A model generated the notes under the pieces. That model had not been told where the DNA came from and made no database searches. It saw nothing but the letters and a program-made list of their open reading frames with translations. From the IMG/VR virus record IMGVR_UViG_2547132271_000007: 5,601 bases of DNA; one strand, written 5' to 3'. How positions within the stretch are numbered: the first letter of the stretch is position 1; the number at the start of each line of letters is the position of its first letter. The DNA comes from a virus (Duplodnaviria > Heunggongvirae > Uroviricota > Caudoviricetes). The position numbers were made by a program, and so were the translations under genes. Below, in pieces: positions 1-5,601 of the stretch.

Positions 1-27
1 CATATCAGGAACTTGTTCGCACCTTCC

Positions 28-101
28 CTAGGAAATGATTTCCGATCTATTTAGGAAGTAACCTAGGAAGTGGTTTCCTACCTACTTAGGAAATGAGTTC
101 C
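28..101. repeat. Iteron-like array: three copies of a 16-bp imperfect palindrome YTAGGAARTGRTTTCC (28-43, 63-78, 86-101) plus a partial copy TTAGGAAGTAACC (51-63)
   Basis: Read directly. Copy 1 contains the perfect palindrome GGAAAT-G-ATTTCC; copies 2 and 3 differ at 2-3 positions. The window starts at position 1, so the array may continue upstream. Confidence 0.6.
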
Positions 102-104
102 ACC

Positions 105-168
105 AATACTATAATTAAATACTATAATTAAATAATATAAATAATATTCTTTATACTATATATATGAT
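105..168. repeat. AT-rich tract with a tandem 13-bp direct repeat ACTATAATTAAAT (108-120, 121-133); candidate DNA-unwinding element
   Basis: Read directly: almost pure A/T for about 60 bp immediately after the iteron-like array. Iterons next to an AT-rich tract is the classic origin architecture in plasmids and phages. Confidence 0.45.
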
Positions 169-180
169 CTTTTGCCTTCC

Positions 181-350
181 GGCGTTAGCTTCACTCTCTG
201 GCAAGCAGCCTTACTCCGCTACCTTTCGGGCTTCGTGGCTGGCCCGTTCCGCTCACACCGAAAGTAAAGCGTTACTTTCTTCGTGTAACTATCGTTGGCG
301 GTAACGCCCACGAAGAAATACTATTGCGCTGTGCGCAGAAGAGTAATCAC
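181..350. other. GC-rich, hairpin-dense block (candidate structured non-coding RNA or single-strand-origin-like element); strand unknown
   Basis: Local GC content is clearly above the AT-rich flanks. Hairpins seen: CGGGC(227-231)/GCCCG(242-246); TTTCTTCGTG(276-285)/CACGAAGAAA(309-318); TGCGC(326-330)/GCGCA(334-338). GCGTTA occurs at 182-187 and 269-274 with a single complement TAACGC at 302-307; CTTCGTG occurs at 231-237 and 279-285 with a single complement CACGAAG at 309-315. No ORF covers it. Confidence 0.35.
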
Positions 351-396
351 CTAACCAATCATACTGATTGCTTATGTGTAACTCTCTCTACCTCTT

Positions 397-448
397 AATT
401 CCACTTCCTACATTTAATAACTCTGTTATTCTCTGTAGTTGTGTAATT
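397..448. repeat. 52-bp direct repeat, copy 1, containing a nested bipartite palindrome CTACA-N3-AATAAC-N3-GTTATT-N3-TGTAG (408-438)
   Basis: Identical to copy 2 apart from a 1-bp indel. The inner and outer palindrome arms are exact reverse complements. Confidence 0.9.
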
Positions 449-474
449 ACTCGAAGAGAGAGCGGCTAAAGCTC

Positions 475-502
475 AATTACACTCTGCTTTCCTCGTGTAA
501 TT
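475..502. promoter_or_regulatory. Inverted repeat AATTACAC-N12-GTGTAATT between the two 52-bp repeats
   Basis: 8-bp arms are exact reverse complements. GTGTAATT is also the 3-prime end of both 52-bp repeats (441-448, 565-572), and GTGTAACT occurs at 283-290 and 376-383. Confidence 0.55.
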
Positions 503-519
503 TCACTAAGCCTCAATAC

Positions 520-572
520 AATTCCACTTCCTACATTTAATAACTCTCGTTATTCTCTGTAGTTGTGTAATT
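520..572. repeat. 53-bp direct repeat, copy 2 (one extra C versus copy 1), with nested palindrome CTACA(531-535)/AATAAC(539-544)/GTTATT(549-554)/TGTAG(558-562)
   Basis: Read directly; 123 bp downstream of copy 1. Confidence 0.9.
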
Positions 573-1096
573 GTTTTCGGTGGAAAAGCCAGAGGCGACA
601 CCGAAAGAGAATTCTGATCTTATTAATCTTATCTATCTTAGTTAATCTTCTTACTTATCTTACTTACTTTATCTACTTTATTATTAATAATAGCTTTATA
701 AGCTCTCTGTGTAGCTCTCTGACGCAAGAAACAGAGTTCAGGAAGGGAATCACCTTAGAAAAGTGTTCTTTGCGTCATAATGTGTTTTATGAAGGATTCA
801 GAGGTGTTTCATAACAGGAATGTATAGAGAATACTTTAGTTAATTAAAAATAAGGGGTCTAAATGCTTCTCTAACAGCATTAAGCAGGGTAGGGAATGGA
901 AACGCATTGCCTACATATAATAAACTCACTACAGGGCTTTACAGAGCGTTTTATAAAGTGACTCTCTATCTTATATCTACAATCACCTTTTCATATACCT
1001 AACAAATACAAAATAAGCCCCTTAAATAAGCCTCTGACGAGATAAATGGCCTCTACATAAGGGAATGTATTGCTTTTATCAAAACTTCGTTAGAAC

Positions 1097-1116
1097 GCGT
1101 TTTAGAGCGTTTTAGA
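1097..1116. repeat. Tandem 10-bp repeat GCGTTTTAGA x2; a related AGAGCGTTTTA copy lies at 943-953
   Basis: Read directly; about 100 bp upstream of the early promoter. Confidence 0.5.
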
Positions 1117-1208
1117 CAATAATGAAGAATAGCACTACACAGGAGAGCACGAATTGCTAAGAAAAAATGTAAGTGCATGAAAAAGATCAGATTTTTTATG
1201 AAAGGGTA

Positions 1209-1237
1209 TTGACAAATGTTTCTTTATATGTAATAAT
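1209..1237 (+). promoter_or_regulatory. Sigma-70/SigA-type promoter: TTGACA (1209-1214), 17-bp spacer, TG-extended -10 AATAAT (1232-1237)
   Basis: Perfect -35 hexamer, canonical spacing, TGn immediately upstream of the -10. Sits about 115 bp upstream of the first gene of the operon. Confidence 0.6.
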
Positions 1238-1350
1238 AGGTATTAGAGGGACAGAAAAACATTCTTCTCTAAATAATCAAAATCAATGCACTTTGAAGCC
1301 GTCAGGCTTGCAAGGTGTTTTATTTCTTTTAACTGAATAAGGAGTTTTTT

Positions 1351-1533
1351 ATGAAATGGTTTACACCGGAGCACGTCGTAGAGGCATTTAAAAAAGGTGA
1401 GCTAACACGCCATCAAGTAGTAATGAACCGTAATATGGCAAGGAGTCGAGGTTATCCAGAGCGAGCAGCTTGTTTCAATGAAGCACTCAAGATTATTGAT
1501 GAACTGCGTAAGAAAGAAGCAGAGAAAGAATAA
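1351..1533 (+). CDS. Hypothetical small protein, 60 aa
   Basis: AAGGAG at 1339-1344, 6 nt before the ATG. First ORF after the promoter. No family recognised. Confidence 0.6.
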   Translation: MKWFTPEHVVEAFKKGELTRHQVVMNRNMARSRGYPERAACFNEALKIIDELRKKEAEKE

Positions 1534-1556
1534 TAACAGGAGAAGGAGAAAACCAA

Positions 1557-1745
1557 ATGAATATTAATTTTGATTCTGCAACTTATAACGCGTTGTTAAA
1601 TCGCGCAAAGGCAGAAGGGAAATCAATTCCAAAACTTGTTAATGAACTACTAATTACAGTCCTTACAAAGGAGGAACTAAATGATCAAAAATATCAAAAC
1701 AATTGCCGAAGCGAAAGCCAAATGTCTAAATCAGAAAGATGGTAA
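1557..1745 (+). CDS. Ribbon-helix-helix (Arc/MetJ/CopG-like) DNA-binding protein, 62 aa
   Basis: AAGGAG at 1543-1548, 8 nt before the ATG. N-terminus INFDSATYNALLNRAKAEGKSIPKLVNELLITVL fits the strand-helix-helix pattern of this superfamily. The 3-prime 65 nt overlap the next gene in another frame, so the true C-terminus is uncertain. Confidence 0.6.
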   Translation: MNINFDSATYNALLNRAKAEGKSIPKLVNELLITVLTKEELNDQKYQNNCRSESQMSKSERW

Positions 1746-2280
1746 ACAAAAATATGTAGTTGTTGAGCAATGGTTGAAGATGTTTAAAAAATGGTATTCA
1801 CCATCTGGTAATGAATACACCGCTACACTGCCAGCCGTTGAAATCTATAGTTATATAGCTGGATTCAATGAACAAGGGCAAGAATGTTACGCTACTCAAA
1901 AAACATTAGCTAATATTGGAATGGTTAGTGATCGTCAGGTTCGCAATATTATAAATATGTTTGTTGATATGGGAGTTCTTTCTGTAGAGGCACGGGACGG
2001 TCAAACATCACTCTATAAAGCATTACCATTTACAGATGCACATATTACTCCCCCAGGAGAATCATCACTCTCTGATCTTTCTGAGGCAGAAGAAGCACAG
2101 GAACAACCTAAAGGCAATAAACAGCCTTCTTTTGATGTTCTTGATGATTGGGATGCGCCTTTGCCGTGGGAGACGGAAGAAACACCTGTTTCATCAAGTG
2201 AAAAGCTACCAAATGGTATTGAGGCATATTTTTCTAAGAATTACCCAAATGTGTATGATGACTTTGATATTCCATTTTAA
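1681..2280 (+). CDS. Winged-helix-like DNA-binding protein with an acidic C-terminal tail, 199 aa; possible replication initiator or replisome organiser
   Basis: AAGGAGG at 1668-1674, 6 nt before the ATG. Segment ATQKTLANIGMVSDRQVRNIINMFVDMGVLSV looks like a winged helix-turn-helix; the tail DDWDAPLPWETEE is acidic. The functional call is inference from this motif and the nearby iteron-like array. Confidence 0.7.
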   Translation: MIKNIKTIAEAKAKCLNQKDGKQKYVVVEQWLKMFKKWYSPSGNEYTATLPAVEIYSYIAGFNEQGQECYATQKTLANIGMVSDRQVRNIINMFVDMGVLSVEARDGQTSLYKALPFTDAHITPPGESSLSDLSEAEEAQEQPKGNKQPSFDVLDDWDAPLPWETEETPVSSSEKLPNGIEAYFSKNYPNVYDDFDIPF

Positions 2281-2291
2281 TAAGGAGGGTT

Positions 2292-2570
2292 ATGATTCAA
2301 TATTTAGTAAAAAATCAAGTAGACAGAATTCAGTGTAATGACACAGGAAAACGCATCTACGAAACACTTGCTTACCTCTATAAAGGAAAGCCAACACCGC
2401 TAAAATATAGCGATGTGTTACATCGAGCAGGTTGCTCTGAAGCTGGTTTAAAATTCTGGCTGAAACAGCTATCAAACTTCGGTGTTATTGAGATTAAAGA
2501 ATTATCTTTCTCTACATTCAATCTCAAAAGACTAGACAAAGAAATAGAATTCATCTATTCCACTCTCTAA
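2292..2570 (+). CDS. Small putative helix-turn-helix protein, 92 aa
   Basis: AAGGAGG at 2282-2288 with a short spacer. Segment YSDVLHRAGCSEAGLKFWLKQLSNFGVIEI is helix-turn-helix-like. Begins 12 nt after the upstream stop. Confidence 0.65.
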   Translation: MIQYLVKNQVDRIQCNDTGKRIYETLAYLYKGKPTPLKYSDVLHRAGCSEAGLKFWLKQLSNFGVIEIKELSFSTFNLKRLDKEIEFIYSTL

Positions 2571-2611
2571 AATCTCTCTATGTAATTAAAATATAAAAGG
2601 AAAACATTATT

Positions 2612-2731
2612 ATGATAGTAGCTATGTATTGGTTATTGTTCTTTCTCACGTTAGAAACATATTTCGGGGTGTTTTCCTTTAAAAGAAAAGGAAAATTAAA
2701 TAATGGCAAAAAGAAAAAACAACGTTGTTAA
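2612..2731 (+). CDS. Possible 39-aa hydrophobic peptide (MIVAMYWLLFFLTLETYFGVFSFKRKGKLNNGKKKKQRC); speculative
   Basis: Below the threshold of the ORF track; I translated it by hand. AAAAGG lies about 11 nt upstream. One predicted membrane-spanning segment followed by a basic tail. Overlaps the start of the 2703 ORF in another frame. Confidence 0.2.
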   Translation: MIVAMYWLLFFLTLETYFGVFSFKRKGKLNNGKKKKQRC

Positions 2732-3113
2732 GAAAATCGGGGATTCAGCTTCTCTTCTAAGTAAACCTAAATCTATTCTAAGACGTAAAGACTTTAAAGA
2801 GCTAGTTACGCTCACCAAGCAAAATAGCGCCCCTGGCGAATGGAAAACAGAGATCATAGAACATTCTCCCTCTGTGCCTTGTGGAGATGAATTTAACGCC
2901 TTACAAGAAATCTTATCTTCAACACCTGGCGTGTTCTGGAAACCTAAAAAAAGAAAAGAGTATATCGTTGACAGCTCTGATTTACGCAAATACCAGATTT
3001 TAGGATTTGAAGATTATAATCACTACGTCGGTTATCTCGCCACAAATGGCCTAAATAATTTAGTTCCTGAATTCCAAATTTTAGATAATGCAGATCACTA
3101 TGGAGACTTTTAA
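2703..3113 (+). CDS. Hypothetical protein with a basic N-terminus, 136 aa
   Basis: Weak AAAGGA about 10 nt upstream. Its stop lies 1 nt before the next start codon, which suggests translational coupling. No family recognised. Confidence 0.55.
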   Translation: MAKRKNNVVKKIGDSASLLSKPKSILRRKDFKELVTLTKQNSAPGEWKTEIIEHSPSVPCGDEFNALQEILSSTPGVFWKPKKRKEYIVDSSDLRKYQILGFEDYNHYVGYLATNGLNNLVPEFQILDNADHYGDF

Positions 3114-3114
3114 T

Positions 3115-3453
3115 ATGAACAAAAACACGTATGACACAATTTACTCACTAATTAATTATTATGAGGATGATTACCTCCTGCCTTTAAACCGCGCTGAACT
3201 TGAAGCATACAAAGAAAACACGCCAGCGGCACTAAATGAGGCGTTTAAACACTGGGATTTAGCTGTGAATGCCTTTGAGCACCTCTCTAAGCGTGTAGAG
3301 ATGCTCTGTAAGCGTGAGAACGCATATCTAACAGCGGATCAGCTATGGGAGCTATCAAACTGGATAGAAGGTATTGCATCGGACGTTCGCTATGTAGGAG
3401 ATGGACTTGTTGAACTAGCTCAACGCTTAGGCGCTACTATCACAGAAGAATAA
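3115..3453 (+). CDS. Hypothetical acidic protein, 112 aa
   Basis: GGAGA at 3101-3105, 9 nt before the ATG at 3115. The ORF track starts this frame at 3088, but that start overlaps the upstream gene and has no ribosome-binding site. Last gene before the second promoter. Confidence 0.6.
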   Translation: MNKNTYDTIYSLINYYEDDYLLPLNRAELEAYKENTPAALNEAFKHWDLAVNAFEHLSKRVEMLCKRENAYLTADQLWELSNWIEGIASDVRYVGDGLVELAQRLGATITEE

Positions 3454-3458
3454 AAAAA

Positions 3459-3475
3459 GCAACAAAAAAGTTGTA
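3459..3475. promoter_or_regulatory. Operator-like palindrome GCAAC-N6-GTTGTA, copy 1, just upstream of the -35 element
   Basis: CAAC/GTTG arms are exact reverse complements. The same GCAAC-N6-GTTGTA unit recurs at 3742-3758. Confidence 0.4.
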
Positions 3476-3482
3476 AAATATC

Positions 3483-3511
3483 TTGACATTTCATATATTG
3501 TATGTTAATAT
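3483..3511 (+). promoter_or_regulatory. Strong sigma-70/SigA-type promoter: TTGACA (3483-3488), 17-bp spacer, TG-extended -10 TAATAT (3506-3511)
   Basis: Perfect -35, canonical spacing, TGT immediately upstream of the -10. Faces the downstream capsid-like genes. Confidence 0.65.
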
Positions 3512-3641
3512 AATTATATAGGGGTGATTATTTTTCCTTTATTGGTTCGATATTAAAAATTCTTCCTGTCATTAAAGGGGAGTAAAATCTCCGCTCCCCG
3601 CTTCTCCTCCTTAAGTAAATACTGTGCCATTATACCTCTTT

Positions 3642-3671
3642 GTTATGCATACATCTTGGAGTATGCATAAC
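3642..3671. promoter_or_regulatory. Inverted repeat GTTATGCATA-N10-TATGCATAAC in the leader; each arm contains the palindrome TATGCATA
   Basis: 10-bp arms are exact reverse complements. A related GTTATGCAAC occurs at 3737-3746. Could be an operator or an RNA hairpin. Confidence 0.5.
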
Positions 3672-3700
3672 ATAGGGTAATTACATAGGTATGAGTTAAT

Positions 3701-3732
3701 AAAAGGCGGCTTTAAATGCTGCCTTTTATTTT
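3701..3732 (+). terminator. Intrinsic terminator-like hairpin inside the leader: stem GGCGGC(3705-3710)/GCTGCC(3718-3723) with one G-U pair, 7-nt loop, U-tract 3724-3732
   Basis: An A-tract (3701-3704) upstream can extend the stem. Lies about 190 nt downstream of the predicted start site and about 60 nt upstream of the first downstream gene. Confidence 0.5.
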
Positions 3733-3741
3733 GCCCGTTAT

Positions 3742-3758
3742 GCAACTTAAAAGTTGTA
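3742..3758. promoter_or_regulatory. Operator-like palindrome GCAAC-N6-GTTGTA, copy 2, immediately after the leader terminator
   Basis: Same unit as 3459-3475, 283 bp away. Confidence 0.4.
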
Positions 3759-3794
3759 TTTCTTACTTTAAACAAGGTAACAAGGTTTATATAA

Positions 3795-4007
3795 ATGTTG
3801 TTCTTAAATGATAAAGAGCAAATCATCAAGTATAAAGATGAAATGCTGAAAATTAATCCACAAATTACCGAAATGGTAGCTAAATACGCTGGGTGTTCTG
3901 TAGAGGAAGTAGAAAGATGTGTTGAAAAATATTTTTCTCCTTCTTCTCCGTCTACACCTTCCCTTAATGAATTAATCAAATTAAAAGCTAAGGAGATTAC
4001 TAAATGA
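3795..4007 (+). CDS. Hypothetical small protein, 70 aa
   Basis: Weak AAGG about 9 nt upstream. Its stop overlaps the next start codon (ATGA, 4004-4007), which suggests translational coupling. An alternative in-frame start is at 3843. Confidence 0.5.
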   Translation: MLFLNDKEQIIKYKDEMLKINPQITEMVAKYAGCSVEEVERCVEKYFSPSSPSTPSLNELIKLKAKEITK

Positions 4008-4366
4008 TTATTGATTTAGACACTCTGTTTCCAGTTCGAAAGACTTTCACAGATATTGTAAGTTATTGTACTGATCCGTTTGCCTCTGTAGAAAGCAAGG
4101 TTTTTGCTTCTCTTCCTGCTGATGTTGAGTGCGGAGACTTGATCACCAGCACGGGCGCTAAATATGAATCAGGAGATGATATTTATGTTGTTATGAGTGA
4201 ATTTGTAACGGCTGGAGAAAACAAGCCTGTAGATGTGCTACGTAGCAATGCTGGCCTTGTATGCATCAAAGCTGATGCCCTGAATGCTGTAAGTGAAGCA
4301 GCAAAAACAGCATTAATTAAAAAAGGCTTCCAGCTTGAAGGCTTTAATACGGTTTTCACTTCTTAA
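4004..4366 (+). CDS. Hypothetical protein, 120 aa; possible head decoration protein (lambda gpD-like) by position only
   Basis: AAGGAG at 3990-3995, 8 nt before the ATG. It sits directly upstream of the capsid-like gene and is about the size of lambda gpD (110 aa). I see no convincing sequence similarity from memory. Confidence 0.65.
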   Translation: MIIDLDTLFPVRKTFTDIVSYCTDPFASVESKVFASLPADVECGDLITSTGAKYESGDDIYVVMSEFVTAGENKPVDVLRSNAGLVCIKADALNAVSEAAKTALIKKGFQLEGFNTVFTS

Positions 4367-4384
4367 TAAAAGGAATAATAATAA

Positions 4385-5413
4385 ATGATTCTAGGTAATG
4401 ATTACGTTGATTTAGCTCCTCTGTTCCAGGCACACAGCACTAGAAACTATCTGCTCTCTACCCTTGATTTTACGGATTCTGTAGGGGTTACATCTCATAA
4501 AGTAGCTGTTTCCCAGCTTGTCGAAAGCAACGAATCTCTCTTTAACAAAGAGACAAGCCGTTTCTCTTCTGAACACAACGTTACTAAGCGAGAACAAGGT
4601 AAAGAATGGCTGATCGAAATCCCGTATTTTCTTCGTGAGGATGTGATCCGTCCCTCTGATGTTCAAGGCAAGCGTAAGCCTGGCACTGATTTTCAGGAAA
4701 CACTCACTGATATCTATGCTGACTATGTTGCTAAACACCACGTAGCGTATCAGCGTACAAAAGAGAGCGTATTGGCTGCTTCTTTGTTCTCTGGCAAAAC
4801 TTACACGCCTAAAACTGATGATGTTCTTATCGAGTGGAGCAAGCTGTTTAACGTGGTACCTATGAAAACCACTGTGAACGCTTCCAGCACTGACACCACG
4901 AAGATTTTTAAAGAATTTGATCAGATTGCTACTGACATTATCGAGAAAGCACAAAGCCAGGCGGCTGCTGTAGAGCGTATTGTTGTTTTCTGTAAACCTG
5001 AAGCCTTCTCTGCAATTCGATTCTCTGCGGGTATGGCAAACGCATTCCAGTATGTAAGCCCACTGGAAGAAGGGAACGTTGTGTATCAGCGTCGTGACCT
5101 GCTGCCAGGGGTGACAGCGTTCACTATTCCAGGAACTAACATCGATGTTGTTAAACTGGTAGATCCGCTACACCTTGCACATATGACCGCAGACGCTGTA
5201 GCTGTTCCGAAGTTTGCTAAAGGCTCTAATGTATATCAGAACATCTACGGGGCTGCTTCCAGCACCTTTGAACTGATTAATGCCGCTCCTGCTGAAGTGT
5301 ATAGCTATAGCTATGAATCTTCTCGTGGTGATGCTGTTAACGTGGTTACAGAGAATAGCCAGATGGTTGTAAACCACGGTGTAGGCTTCTCCGTTCAAAT
5401 CACTGTTAAATAA
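4385..5413 (+). CDS. Probable major capsid protein, 342 aa, lambda gpE-like family (tentative)
   Basis: Longest ORF in the window, rich in V/A/S/T, followed by a strong terminator. Against my recalled lambda gpE sequence (341 aa) there are three colinear local matches: SLFSGKTYTPKTDD vs AVLKGKYTMTGE; IVVFCKPEAFSAIRFS vs IIVFDPKGWALFRSF; LLPGVTAFTIPG vs FLPDNTMVLGN. Family assignment is unverified. Confidence 0.8.
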   Translation: MILGNDYVDLAPLFQAHSTRNYLLSTLDFTDSVGVTSHKVAVSQLVESNESLFNKETSRFSSEHNVTKREQGKEWLIEIPYFLREDVIRPSDVQGKRKPGTDFQETLTDIYADYVAKHHVAYQRTKESVLAASLFSGKTYTPKTDDVLIEWSKLFNVVPMKTTVNASSTDTTKIFKEFDQIATDIIEKAQSQAAAVERIVVFCKPEAFSAIRFSAGMANAFQYVSPLEEGNVVYQRRDLLPGVTAFTIPGTNIDVVKLVDPLHLAHMTADAVAVPKFAKGSNVYQNIYGAASSTFELINAAPAEVYSYSYESSRGDAVNVVTENSQMVVNHGVGFSVQITVK

Positions 5414-5431
5414 TATTTTAACGTGTAATAG

Positions 5432-5477
5432 AGGCGTGGCGTGAATAACACGCTTCGCCTTTTTTTATTTATTTTTT
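5432..5477 (+). terminator. Strong Rho-independent terminator: 12-bp stem AGGCGTGGCGTG/CACGCTTCGCCT (one mismatch, one G-U), loop AATAA, U-tract TTTTTTATTTATTTTTT
   Basis: Read directly; begins 19 nt after the capsid-like stop codon. Confidence 0.8.
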
Positions 5478-5500
5478 AAATTTTGAGAGGTGATTAAAAT

Positions 5501-5601
5501 ATGGAAGTGATTTTGAAATCAAAAAATGGTGTACACGTTCATTTAGATGCTAATGATTCTAGAGGCTTGTTAAATCTGAAATATCTATGTTCTCTCTTGG
5601 A
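5501..5601 (+). CDS. 5-prime end of a gene running off the window (MEVILKSKNGVHVHLDANDSRGLLNLKYLCSLL...), function unknown
   Basis: GAGGTG at 5487-5492, 8 nt before the ATG at 5501. Open frame to the window edge. Not in the ORF track because it has no stop. Confidence 0.45.
   Translation, partial: MEVILKSKNGVHVHLDANDSRGLLNLKYLCSLL

What the first reader, a model, noticed from the sequence alone, without database searches (positions are those of the whole stretch)
1..1350. 1.35-kb gene-free region with layered repeats: candidate replication origin or control locus
A non-coding stretch this long is unusual for a compact phage or plasmid genome. It contains, in order, an iteron-like array (28-101), an AT-rich tract with a tandem 13-mer (105-168), a GC-rich hairpin block (181-350), two 52-bp direct repeats with nested palindromes (397-448, 520-572), a pyrimidine-rich low-complexity tract (600-700) and an imperfect long hairpin (720-777). 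Iterons next to an AT-rich tract is the textbook origin layout. The downstream winged-helix-like 199-aa protein (1681-2280) is a plausible initiator, though it lies about 1.6 kb away. Packaging-site or regulatory roles cannot be excluded.
Basis: partly seen in the sequence, partly recalled or inferred. Interest (0 to 1): 0.65.

Follow-up and report, generated by a model that had tools for sequence, protein, structure and literature searches.

The report
Replication origin of E. coli satellite island
The repeats at 28-168 are very probably the replication origin of an undescribed phage-satellite-like island found in many E. coli genomes, matched to the 199-aa protein downstream and apparently targeted by nucleases that lytic coliphages built from copies of that protein's DNA-binding domain.

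Summary
All the described features are present at the stated coordinates. Bases 1-27 are the end of an IS5-family insertion sequence. The rest is the non-coding region of a ~12-kb chromosomal island (tRNA-Thr, tRNA-Gly or thiM sites), matched in 725-1082 of 5426 complete E. coli genomes.

Bases 29-101 hold three 15-bp near-palindromic iterons plus one degenerate copy, beside a 92% A+T tract (105-168). The 199-aa protein is modular: a confident winged helix, a disordered linker and a C-terminus ending DDFDIPF, like the SSB tip DDDIPF. Relatives carry five N-terminal domain types and five iteron types. In 32 of 33 distinct loci the array nearest the A+T tract matches the domain type, and both parts are swapped together in otherwise alignable backbones.

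Three lytic Stephanstirmvirinae phages encode proteins with two of these domains fused to a T5orf172 nuclease, paralleling ICP1 Odn, which cuts the PLE satellite origin.

I read 28-168 as an iteron origin with the 199-aa protein as initiator (confidence 0.7). Bases 1209-1335 are the operon promoter and a leader terminator. Bases 170-1208 contain segments more conserved than the neighbouring gene, but their role is unassigned. No RNA family, gene remnant or phage packaging-site similarity was found.

The parts
1..27 (.). Terminal inverted repeat of an IS5-family insertion sequence (ISKpn26/IS5-like). It is not part of the origin and truncates the non-coding region on the left.
   Evidence: Bases 1-36/47 match Klebsiella and Enterobacter plasmids at 91-97%. 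In one of these the match lies about 40 nt outside the start of an ISKpn26 transposase gene. E. coli homologues of the island begin matching at base 27. The identification of the sequence as an IS5-type end, and of CTAG as its target, rests on my own knowledge.
29..101 (+). Type-A iteron array. Near-palindromic 15-mers lie at 29-43, 64-78 and 87-101, with a degenerate copy at about 50-63. Start-to-start spacing is 21-23 bp. Proposed binding sites of the 199-aa protein's winged helix.
   Evidence: 8 matches against 0.59 expected. Type-A arrays accompany type-A N-terminal domains in 8 of 8 distinct loci. The array is a 111-bp cassette present in L001 and absent in L003, whose protein has a different domain.
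102..168 (.). A+T-rich tract (90% A+T) with the 13-mer AATACTATAATTA in 3.1 copies at 105-144. Candidate DNA-unwinding element.
   Evidence: An A+T tract lies between the iteron cassette and the conserved right-hand block in every lineage. In APEC O1 the type-B iterons are inserted inside it.
170..365 (.). Conserved GC-rich hairpin block directly right of the A+T tract. Function unassigned. It contains CCGCTCACACCGAA (250-263) and TTGCGCTGTGCGCAGAA (323-339), the only motifs shared with the otherwise unalignable second backbone type.
   Evidence: Fold z = -3.8 and -4.1. Pairwise difference is 1.5-2.3% at 251-350, against 8-14% in the first gene. The 316-355 block is found in other lineages. 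The shared motifs were read.
283..571 (.). Cluster of six GTGTAAY motifs, five on the + strand and one on the - strand. The inverse motif ATTACAC is repeated to the left of the iterons in intact relatives. Possible sites for a second, unidentified DNA-binding factor.
   Evidence: 8 matches in the window against 1.25 expected, 6 of them inside 283-571. Left-hand ATTACAC copies are seen.
397..572 (+). Two 52/53-bp direct repeats (397-448 and 520-572) and the segment between them. This stretch is recombination-prone and variable.
   Evidence: Copy 2 is 19 nt shorter, or lies within a larger deletion, in all six aligned relatives with this backbone. The segment between the repeats is deleted in L003. 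Pairwise difference here is 18-21%.
612..690 (+). CTTA-rich pyrimidine tract, 71% pyrimidine, low complexity, with length variation among relatives.
720..777 (.). Imperfect hairpin with 14-nt arms. The sequence after it (751-900) is almost invariant. Role unknown.
   Evidence: I12. Pairwise difference is 0.7% at 751-800 and 0.9% at 851-900.
936..1208 (+). Promoter-upstream block conserved across all lineages at 78-85%. It includes AGAGCGTTTTA-type repeats (939-953, 1090-1114) and an almost invariant stretch, ACATAAGGGAATGTATTGCTTTTATCAAAAC (1055-1085, two variable positions). Probably operator or regulatory sites for the operon.
   Evidence: (D4).
1209..1237 (+). Sigma-70 promoter of the island's rightward operon: TTGACA, 17 nt, AATAAT, with TG before the second hexamer. 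11 of 12 positions match the consensus.
   Evidence: The -35 element is invariant in all lineages, and the same site is found in L002 and L007.
1288..1335 (+). Intrinsic terminator in the ~85-nt leader: a 12-bp stem with one bulge, then a U-rich tail. Candidate attenuation or antitermination control point.
   Evidence: z = -2.9. It is conserved in all lineages, and L006 and L007 have lost one A-T pair from both arms. The same motif recovered 53 loci of the family.
1557..1745 (+). Gene for a 62-aa protein that looks like a ribbon-helix-helix regulator, immediately upstream of the initiator gene and overlapping it. The ribbon-helix-helix call is my reading of the sequence.
   Evidence: PHROG hits are weak, including one to a transcriptional regulator family. 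Bases 1543-1709 are 99% identical to a gene of phages PaulScherrer and VEcB.
1681..2280 (+). Gene for the 199-aa putative initiator. It has a type-A winged-helix domain (aa ~31-125), a disordered linker (aa 129-178) and a C-terminal tip ending YDDFDIPF.
   Evidence: Pfam HTH_36. PHROG replication-initiator families. Modular alignments. AlphaFold2 model. SSB-Ct is DDDIPF according to PMC5872125.

Best explanation
Window 28-168 is the iteron-type replication origin of a ~12-kb integrative, satellite-like island of E. coli.

Proposed mechanism:
1. The 199-aa protein (1681-2280) binds the 15-bp near-palindromic iterons through its N-terminal winged helix. The iterons are spaced about two helical turns apart. 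This step is inferred from strict co-variation.
2. The bound protein opens the adjacent 90% A+T tract. This is inferred from the layout.
3. The protein has no helicase or primase domain. I propose that it recruits replication proteins through its flexible linker and its C-terminal ...DDFDIPF tip. That tip resembles the SSB C-terminal peptide, which docks DnaG and other SSB-binding replication proteins. The recruited proteins could belong to the host or to the helper phage. This step is inference only.

Specificity is modular. Five domain types pair with five iteron cassettes, and the cognate cassette is always the one next to the A+T tract.

The origin appears to be a target in a conflict with lytic Stephanstirmvirinae phages. 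Three of them carry two of these DNA-binding domains fused to a T5orf172 (GIY-YIG superfamily) nuclease. This would explain the cassette diversity.

The remaining parts of 1-1350 are:
- an IS end (1-27);
- conserved but unassigned hairpin-rich DNA (170-935);
- a regulatory block (936-1208);
- the operon promoter (1209-1237);
- a leader terminator (1288-1335).
For: 1. The repeats and the A+T tract are real and non-random.

2. Domain and iteron types co-vary. In 33 distinct loci the array nearest the A+T tract matches the N-terminal domain type in 32: A 8/8, B 8/8, C 9/10, D 3/3, E 4/4. Spacing is 22-23 bp.

3. Linkage alone does not explain this.
- L005 and L004 align at 98% to the left of the cassette and at 99.8% over the 3' half of the initiator gene. 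They are unalignable in the ~144-bp cassette and in the segment encoding the small upstream protein and the N-terminal domain.
- The same paired replacement is seen in L006 vs L007, L003 vs L001 (111-bp A cassette) and L002 vs L001 (86-bp B array).

4. Every variant of the protein hits only replication-initiator PHROGs (phrog_270, 391, 186, 428 and others, E down to 1e-9) and Pfam HTH_36.

6. The C-terminal IPF is kept across two unrelated C-domain families and in a Klebsiella homologue. SSB-Ct is DDDIPF and binds DnaG among many partners (PMC5872125).

7. No other protein of the island has a helicase, primase or polymerase domain. There is no DnaA box in the window.

8. Phage chimeras carry the same domains.
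- muut_154 has domain D, domain A (93% aa identity) and a T5orf172 region (PHROG 681 endonuclease, 2e-18).
- Mt1B1_P17 QNJ49226 has C, A and the nuclease.
- inny_184 has E, A and the nuclease.
- This is the architecture of ICP1 Odn, which cuts the PLE origin at its iterons (PMC8263062).

9. A short version of the island at thiM (L008) keeps exactly the non-coding region plus the first genes, including the initiator.
Against: - No experiment shows replication or binding.
- The iterons lie about 1.6 kb from the initiator gene, which is farther than in most iteron replicons.
- Public annotations call the protein a transcriptional regulator or HTH protein.
- The window's protein lacks about 45 residues present in most relatives. 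An IS sits directly against the first iteron. This particular copy may therefore be impaired.
- One locus, L040, pairs domain C with a B array.
- The loci are related, so the 32/33 count overstates the number of independent events. About four or five separate swaps are documented.
- The GC-skew minimum lies at about 600-1000, not at the iterons.
Confidence: 0.7

Rival explanations
1. The arrays are operators, not an origin. On this reading the 199-aa protein is a transcription factor, for example the island's master repressor or activator. The phage chimeras merely exploit its DNA specificity.
For: Databases name the protein a transcriptional regulator. The fold is a generic winged helix. Palindromic 15-mers are typical operators. 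The region also contains the operon promoter.
Against: The arrays lie about 1.1 kb upstream of the only strong promoter, with no promoter next to them. All PHROG hits are to replication initiators. A 90% A+T tract always abuts the cognate array. The conserved SSB-like C-terminal tip has no obvious role in a repressor.
Confidence: 0.12
2. The arrays are a packaging recognition site of the pac or cosB type. On this reading the 199-aa protein acts like a small terminase subunit and directs the helper's terminase to island DNA.
For: From general knowledge, small terminases such as lambda gpNu1 have an N-terminal winged helix that binds repeated sites, and a C-terminal tail that contacts the large subunit. 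The island encodes capsid and tail-related proteins but no terminase. Cutting a pac site would also disable a satellite.
Against: The protein has no terminase family hit. Its hits are to initiator families. The C-terminal tip resembles SSB-Ct rather than a terminase contact. Bases 1-1400 have no detectable similarity to any phage genome, including Stephanstirmvirinae. The A+T tract adjacency is unexplained on this reading.
Confidence: 0.07
3. Most of 170-1200 encodes a large structured non-coding RNA. Alternatively it provides single-strand DNA hairpins that act as primosome or primase entry sites. Either could coexist with an origin at 28-168.
For: Folding z-scores of -3 to -5.6 on both strands across 281-600 and for 170-365. 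Small GC hairpins carry GNRA-type loops, such as GGCG-GTAA-CGCC at 300-311. Segments are 5-15 times more conserved than the adjacent gene. Two different hairpins occupy the same place in the second backbone.
Against: No Rfam match at E <= 1 in the window, and only chance-level hits within the non-coding regions of two relatives. No promoter and terminator pair brackets the region, and promoter-like sites are fewer than expected. RNAalifold found 3 compensatory pairs out of 111 and an unfavourable covariation term (+4.4 kcal/mol). The z-scores are equal on both strands, as expected for DNA palindromes.
Confidence: 0.15
4. The region is decayed coding sequence or dispensable spacer with chance repeats.
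For: IS elements insert here. Deletions between direct repeats occur. The island may be defective in many strains.
Against: No relative has an intact gene in its place in any lineage examined. Several segments are far more conserved than the neighbouring genes. The repeat families exceed chance. Indels are not multiples of three.
Confidence: 0.03

Closest known systems
PLE satellite origin and RepA initiator of Vibrio cholerae, with ICP1 Odn (origin-directed nuclease) as counter-defence
   Same: - The origin lies in a non-coding region and consists of semi-palindromic iterons bound by an initiator that has no helicase or primase domain.
- Initiator and origin modules are exchanged between element variants.
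- The lytic phage encodes a chimera of the initiator's DNA-binding domain and a T5orf172 nuclease (PMC7145576, PMC8263062).
- The model of the 199-aa protein superposes on PLE RepA-NTD 4RO3 over 95 residues at 2.7 A.
   Different: - There is no sequence relationship. Pfam gives HTH_36, not RepA_N.
- Host, phage family (Stephanstirmvirinae) and island gene content are all different.
- The coliphage chimeras carry two DNA-binding domains each, and they are 93% identical to the island's. Odn carries one, at 42% identity.
- The initiator ends in an SSB-like tip, which the parts of the PLE papers I read do not mention.
- Nothing here has been tested experimentally.
Lambda O protein and ori-lambda, and other phage O-like or DnaD-like initiators
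   Same: A winged-helix N-terminal domain binds about four iterons next to an A+T-rich region. A flexible linker and C-terminal part recruit the helicase loader. Specificity is modular among lambdoid phages (general knowledge). PHROG 'replication initiation O-like' families are hit.
   Different: Ori-lambda lies inside the O gene, whereas here the iterons are 1.6 kb upstream across non-coding DNA. No P-like or DnaC-like partner gene is present. The PHROG E-values are modest (1e-4 to 1e-9).
SaPI/PICI and P4 satellite origins
   Same: A satellite-encoded origin with iterons flanking or adjoining an A+T-rich tract, with initiator specificity that varies between elements (general knowledge; PMC7145576 discussion).
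   Different: Those initiators carry primase and/or helicase activity. This one does not. The island encodes its own major capsid protein and a tape-measure-like protein but no terminase or portal. That gene set fits none of the P4-like, PICI, cf-PICI or PLE layouts.
E. coli SSB C-terminal tip (SSB-Ct, DDDIPF)
   Same: The protein ends in DFDIPF, matching 5 of 6 positions at the extreme C-terminus, and the tip follows a disordered linker as in SSB.
   Different: The tip is attached to a double-strand DNA-binding winged helix rather than an OB fold. The second C-domain family ends in IYDS(I/L)PF, with fewer acidic residues. Binding to SSB partners has not been tested.

Membership tests
Iteron-type (theta) replication origin | Three or more direct repeats of about 15-22 bp, spaced about two helical turns apart | tested here: met
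   Copies at 29-43, (50-63), 64-78 and 87-101, with 21-23 bp spacing. All five array types in relatives have 22-23 bp spacing.
Iteron-type (theta) replication origin | Adjacent A+T-rich unwinding region | tested here: met
   Bases 102-168 are 90% A+T with tandem 13-mers. The tract is present in every lineage.
Iteron-type (theta) replication origin | Cognate initiator encoded by the element that recognises the iterons | tested here: met
   Met by co-variation only: 32 of 33 loci match, with paired cassette and domain swaps. Physical binding cannot be tested with these tools.
Iteron-type (theta) replication origin | The fragment supports autonomous or helper-dependent replication | not testable with these tools
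   Requires a plasmid replication assay or marker-frequency sequencing.
Iteron-type (theta) replication origin | DnaA boxes or IHF sites, present in many but not all iteron origins | tested here: not met
   No TTWTNCACA and no WATCAANNNNTTR match in the window. These are not obligatory features.
RepA_N initiators (PLE RepA, staphylococcal plasmid RepA) | Sequence membership in Pfam RepA_N (PF06970) | tested here: not met
   Only HTH_36 is detected.
RepA_N initiators (PLE RepA, staphylococcal plasmid RepA) | RepA_N/DnaD-NTD-type extended winged-helix fold | tested here: inconclusive
Lambda O-type initiator and origin | Iterons located within the initiator gene, with a partner helicase loader (P-like) | tested here: not met
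   The iterons are 1.6 kb upstream of the gene. No P-like or DnaC-like gene is present in the island.
PICI/SaPI or P4 replication module | Initiator with a primase and/or helicase domain | tested here: not met
   No such domain was found in any island protein scanned.
Odn-type origin-directed nuclease (phage side) | Phage protein combining a satellite-initiator DNA-binding domain with a T5orf172/GIY-YIG nuclease domain | tested here: met
   Seen in muut_154, Mt1B1_P17 QNJ49226 and inny_184. Definition taken from PMC8263062. Cleavage of the iterons is not testable here.
Known RNA families (Rfam 15) | Covariance-model match | tested here: not met
   No match at E <= 1 in the window. In L002 and L007 there were tRNA matches (and one overlapping low-score match) at the flanking tRNA genes, and only chance-level hits (E about 1 or more) in the non-coding region.

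The most novel reading that the evidence does not exclude
The island belongs to an undescribed family of E. coli satellites that parasitise large lytic Stephanstirmvirinae myoviruses (phi92-like and Phapecoctavirus).

Its initiator is a new type. A swappable winged helix tethers an SSB-tip mimic to the origin. This would recruit primase, the primosome or the helper's replisome directly, without DnaA, a helicase or a primase of its own.

The invariant hairpin block beside the A+T tract would be the loading or priming site.

The five iteron/domain cassettes and the phage dual-domain nucleases would then be two sides of an ongoing arms race. That would make this the second known origin-directed-nuclease system, and the first in a genetically tractable coliphage system.
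Probability: 0.35. Interest if true: 0.85.

Novelty: new variant of a known kind. Interest (0 to 1): 0.7.

Why it matters
If confirmed, this gives E. coli a counterpart of the Vibrio PLE/ICP1 system. That would mean a satellite-like island, whose non-coding region has matches in 725 (about 13%) of 5426 complete genomes, with an origin that is the focus of a conflict with therapeutic-type lytic phages (phi92-like and Phapecoctavirus).

Practical and conceptual consequences:
- It would explain why some of these phages carry chimeric nucleases.
- It would predict which strains restrict which phages, according to iteron and domain type.
- It would offer a simple test of how a helicase-less initiator recruits a replisome, through an SSB-tip mimic.

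For annotation, several hundred proteins now labelled 'transcriptional regulator' or 'HTH domain-containing protein' would be replication initiators. A 1.6-2.8-kb stretch currently left blank would gain an origin, a promoter and a leader terminator.

Tried and rejected
- **Known RNA families.** Rfam scans of the window and of two relatives gave nothing in the non-coding region. No tRNA or tmRNA was found.
- **Conserved RNA structure.** RNAalifold on 11 sequences of the second backbone gave 3 compensatory pairs out of 111 and an unfavourable covariation term. The sequences are too similar to decide, so I did not build a covariance model.
- **Internal RNA gene.** No strong promoter and terminator pair lies inside 28-1208.
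- **Packaging-site mimicry.** blastn at distant sensitivity of 1-1400 against 50,697 phage records found only the IS end.
- **Pseudogene remnants.** No lineage has a gene in this place, and PGAP annotates none.
- **DnaA boxes, IHF sites and Dam sites.** No DnaA box or IHF consensus. GATC is not enriched: 4 sites in 1350 bp.
- **GC-skew switch at the origin.** The cumulative minimum lies at about 600-1000, not at 28-168. Skew is uninformative for a 12-kb integrated element.
- **Relatives outside Escherichia.** A scan of one genome per species with the capsid protein returned a single Escherichia locus. The homologue search found one Klebsiella protein.
- **Defence-system models.** PADLOC gave no hits.
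- **Sequence search of solved structures.** Only generic winged helices.
- **Literature.** Searches for a described satellite of this kind, or of these phages, found nothing. The library does not cover all journals.
- **Single-iteron scan of viral contigs.** Mostly single chance matches. Multi-copy clusters appeared only in loci of this family among the rows listed.
Full report
**What the window is.** The window is not a phage or plasmid genome. It matches chromosomal DNA in 1082 of 5426 complete E. coli genomes, and in 186 of them over at least 80% of its length, at 93-96% identity in the best-matching records. In APEC O1 the homologous stretch lies in an island of about 12 kb that starts at tRNA-Thr (thrW) and ends with a tyrosine integrase gene. 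The island also encodes a lambda-E-type major capsid protein, a 609-aa tape-measure-like protein and a 'baseplate' protein. Relatives sit at tRNA-Gly and next to the thiM TPP riboswitch.

Bases 1-27 are foreign to the island. They match the outer end of IS5-family elements such as ISKpn26. The island homology begins at base 27, at a CTAG.

**The observation.**
- The 15-mers at 29-43, 64-78 and 87-101, plus a degenerate copy at 50-63, give 8 pattern matches against 0.59 expected.
- Bases 105-168 are 92% A+T and hold a 13-mer in 3.1 copies.
- Bases 181-350 are 53% G+C and fold far better than shuffles on both strands.
- The 52/53-bp repeats, the CTTA-rich tract and the 720-777 hairpin are as described.
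- No frame exceeds 83 codons, and no CDS is annotated under the match in the 50 records listed from the 726 that match.

**The initiator and the iterons.** The 199-aa protein has a Pfam HTH_36 domain. It and all its variants hit only PHROG families annotated as replication initiators, O-like or DnaD-like.

Alignments show a modular protein:
- an N-terminal DNA-binding domain that comes in five unrelated-looking types, which I call A-E;
- an invariant ALP(F/L)TDAHITPP joint;
- a variable acidic linker and C-domain;
- a C-terminus that always ends in IPF. In the window it reads YDDFDIPF.

The AlphaFold2 model agrees: a confident winged helix (residues 31-125), a disordered stretch (129-178) and a short terminal helix. 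The E. coli SSB tip is DDDIPF and is the docking peptide for DnaG and many other proteins (PMC5872125).

Upstream, just left of the A+T tract, relatives carry one of five repeat families:
- A: TAGGAARTGRTTTCC
- B: a 22-mer, GGTCAnnGTGARCTAGGGG
- C: ACAGAAnnCTGTTA
- D: ACCCCTATCAA
- E: GTAACGAnnnGTTAC

Among 33 distinct loci from genomes, viral contigs and metagenomes, the array nearest the A+T tract is of the protein's own type in 32. Spacing is 22-23 bp.

This is not mere linkage.
- L005 and L004 are 98% identical left of the cassette and 99.8% identical from the middle of the initiator gene onward. They are unalignable in a ~144-bp cassette and in the segment encoding the small upstream protein and the N-terminal domain.
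- L006 vs L007, L003 vs L001 and L002 vs L001 show the same paired replacements.

Some loci keep a second, non-cognate array farther from the A+T tract, for example L001 and L002.

**Phage chimeric nucleases.** The only phage DNA resembling the window is two short patches. One of them, 1776-2036, encodes the type-A domain.

In phage muut the matching gene, muut_154, encodes a type-D domain, then a type-A domain at 93% amino-acid identity, then a T5orf172/MUG113 region that hits an endonuclease PHROG at 2e-18. Mt1B1_P17 (a Phapecoctavirus) has C + A + the same nuclease. Phage inny has E + A + nuclease, and even retains the island-type linker.

This is the architecture of ICP1 Odn. Odn couples a copy of the PLE RepA DNA-binding domain to a T5orf172 nuclease and cleaves the PLE origin at its iterons. 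PLE escapes by changing its iterons or exchanging its replication module (PMC8263062). The parallel argues that the iterons are vital to the island, and that Stephanstirmvirinae phages are its partners.

Two further observations point the same way. The island's 609-aa protein is 34-36% identical to the tape-measure proteins of these phages. The small gene upstream of the initiator is 99% identical to a gene of two Justusliebigvirus phages.

**The rest of 1-1350.**
- Bases 1209-1237 are a near-consensus sigma-70 promoter.
- The ~85-nt leader ends in a conserved intrinsic terminator at 1288-1335. Two lineages have lost one base pair from both arms. Expression of the operon probably needs read-through.
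- Bases 936-1208 are conserved at 78-85% across all lineages and carry AGAGCGTTTTA repeats and an almost invariant 31-mer. I read this block as regulatory.
- Bases 170-935 exist in two unalignable backbone versions. These share only two short motifs, CCGCTCACAnCGAA and TTGCGCTGTGCGCAGAA, at similar spacing with a hairpin between them.
- Within the window's backbone, 251-350 differs by 1.5-2.3% between sequences, and 751-800 and 851-900 by under 1%. The first gene differs by 8-14%. These segments are therefore under constraint.
- Six GTGTAAY motifs cluster at 283-571. The inverse motif is repeated to the left of the iterons in intact copies.

I could not assign a function to 170-935. There is no Rfam family, no internal promoter and terminator pair, no convincing covariation and no similarity to phage DNA. 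A helicase or primase entry site, auxiliary protein sites or a packaging signal all remain possible.

**Caveats for this copy.** The IS separates the iterons from the conserved left-hand block. The window's initiator lacks about 45 residues found in most relatives. The second 52-bp repeat copy is peculiar to this sequence among the aligned relatives.

**Verdict.** The origin-plus-initiator reading is supported by co-variation, domain content and the phage chimeras, but it remains untested by experiment (confidence 0.7). The kind of system is known: a satellite iteron origin with exchangeable specificity, targeted by a phage nuclease. This instance appears undescribed in the literature I could search. 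It differs in its initiator family, its SSB-like tip and the dual-domain nucleases.

Noticed in passing
window 1-31: The window begins inside the terminal inverted repeat of an IS5-family element (ISKpn26/IS5-like), inserted at a CTAG that abuts the first iteron. Other strains carry IS903B and ISEc33 in the same non-coding region.
   Followed up: yes
L021:2130-3128 (phage muut), L170:514-1500 (Mt1B1_P17), L171:157-1260 (inny): Three lytic Stephanstirmvirinae phages encode proteins made of two island-type initiator DNA-binding domains (D+A, C+A, E+A) followed by a T5orf172/GIY-YIG-type nuclease domain. This is an apparent coliphage analogue of ICP1 Odn. No phage chimera carrying the B domain was seen.
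   Followed up: partly
window 1288-1335 (leader from about 1244): A conserved intrinsic terminator lies between the strong operon promoter and the first gene. This suggests that island gene expression needs antitermination or attenuation. Lineages L006 and L007 lost one A-T pair from both arms of the stem.
   Followed up: partly
window 3483-3735: A second near-consensus promoter (TTGACA, 17 nt, TAATAT at 3483-3511) is followed about 210 nt later by a strong terminator hairpin (about 3701-3732), within a 340-nt gap that has no substantial ORF on the + strand. The predicted transcript folds with z = -4.7, so this is a candidate small RNA. In other lineages the equivalent gap before the capsid genes is about 0.9-1 kb.
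   Followed up: partly
window 1543-1709: The 62-aa gene upstream of the initiator, which looks like a ribbon-helix-helix regulator, is 99% identical in DNA to a gene of phages PaulScherrer (Bas60) and VEcB. The variant found in APEC O1 is shared with phage muut (muut_153), directly upstream of the chimeric nuclease gene.
   Followed up: partly
window 1681-2280: The window's initiator (199 aa) lacks about 45 residues of the C-domain present in the 229-250-aa forms. The same in-frame deletion occurs in another cluster (P0026, 185 aa). It is unclear whether this form is functional.
   Followed up: no
L002:26014-27843 and window 4385-5413: The island's 609-aa protein is 34-36% identical to tape-measure proteins of ~145-150-kb E. 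coli myoviruses. Its capsid protein has only ~24% identity to any phage capsid in the collection (Pseudomonas phages). No portal, protease or terminase gene is present in the island.
   Followed up: partly
L001:18549-19240; L007:4065-4720; L008:4935-5486: Many relatives carry a ~180-aa serine recombinase (resolvase/invertase type) on the opposite strand at the left edge of the non-coding region. Short repeated motifs lie just upstream of it and could be a res-like site. APEC O1 and the window lack this gene.
   Followed up: no
L008 (NZ_CP024826 1811051-1824300): A short version of the island, about 7.5 kb, lies between duplicated TPP riboswitches at thiM. It keeps the integrase, recombinase, non-coding region and first three or four operon genes but has no capsid or tail genes. 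Its iterons are degenerate type-A copies.
   Followed up: no
L040: This is the only mismatch among 33 loci: a type-C DNA-binding domain paired with a type-B array next to the A+T tract. It may be a recent recombinant or a non-functional copy.
   Followed up: no
window 1-5601; L002:17868-21480: Sigma-70-like promoter matches are fewer than in shuffled sequence: 11 against 16.9 in the window, and 5 against 10.7 in the APEC O1 non-coding region.
   Followed up: no
L002:19376-19403: APEC O1 has a near-consensus rightward promoter (TTGACT, 16 nt, TATAAT) about 600 bp left of the iterons. If active, it would transcribe across the origin. It lies in a segment that is replaced by the recombinase gene in other relatives.
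   Followed up: no
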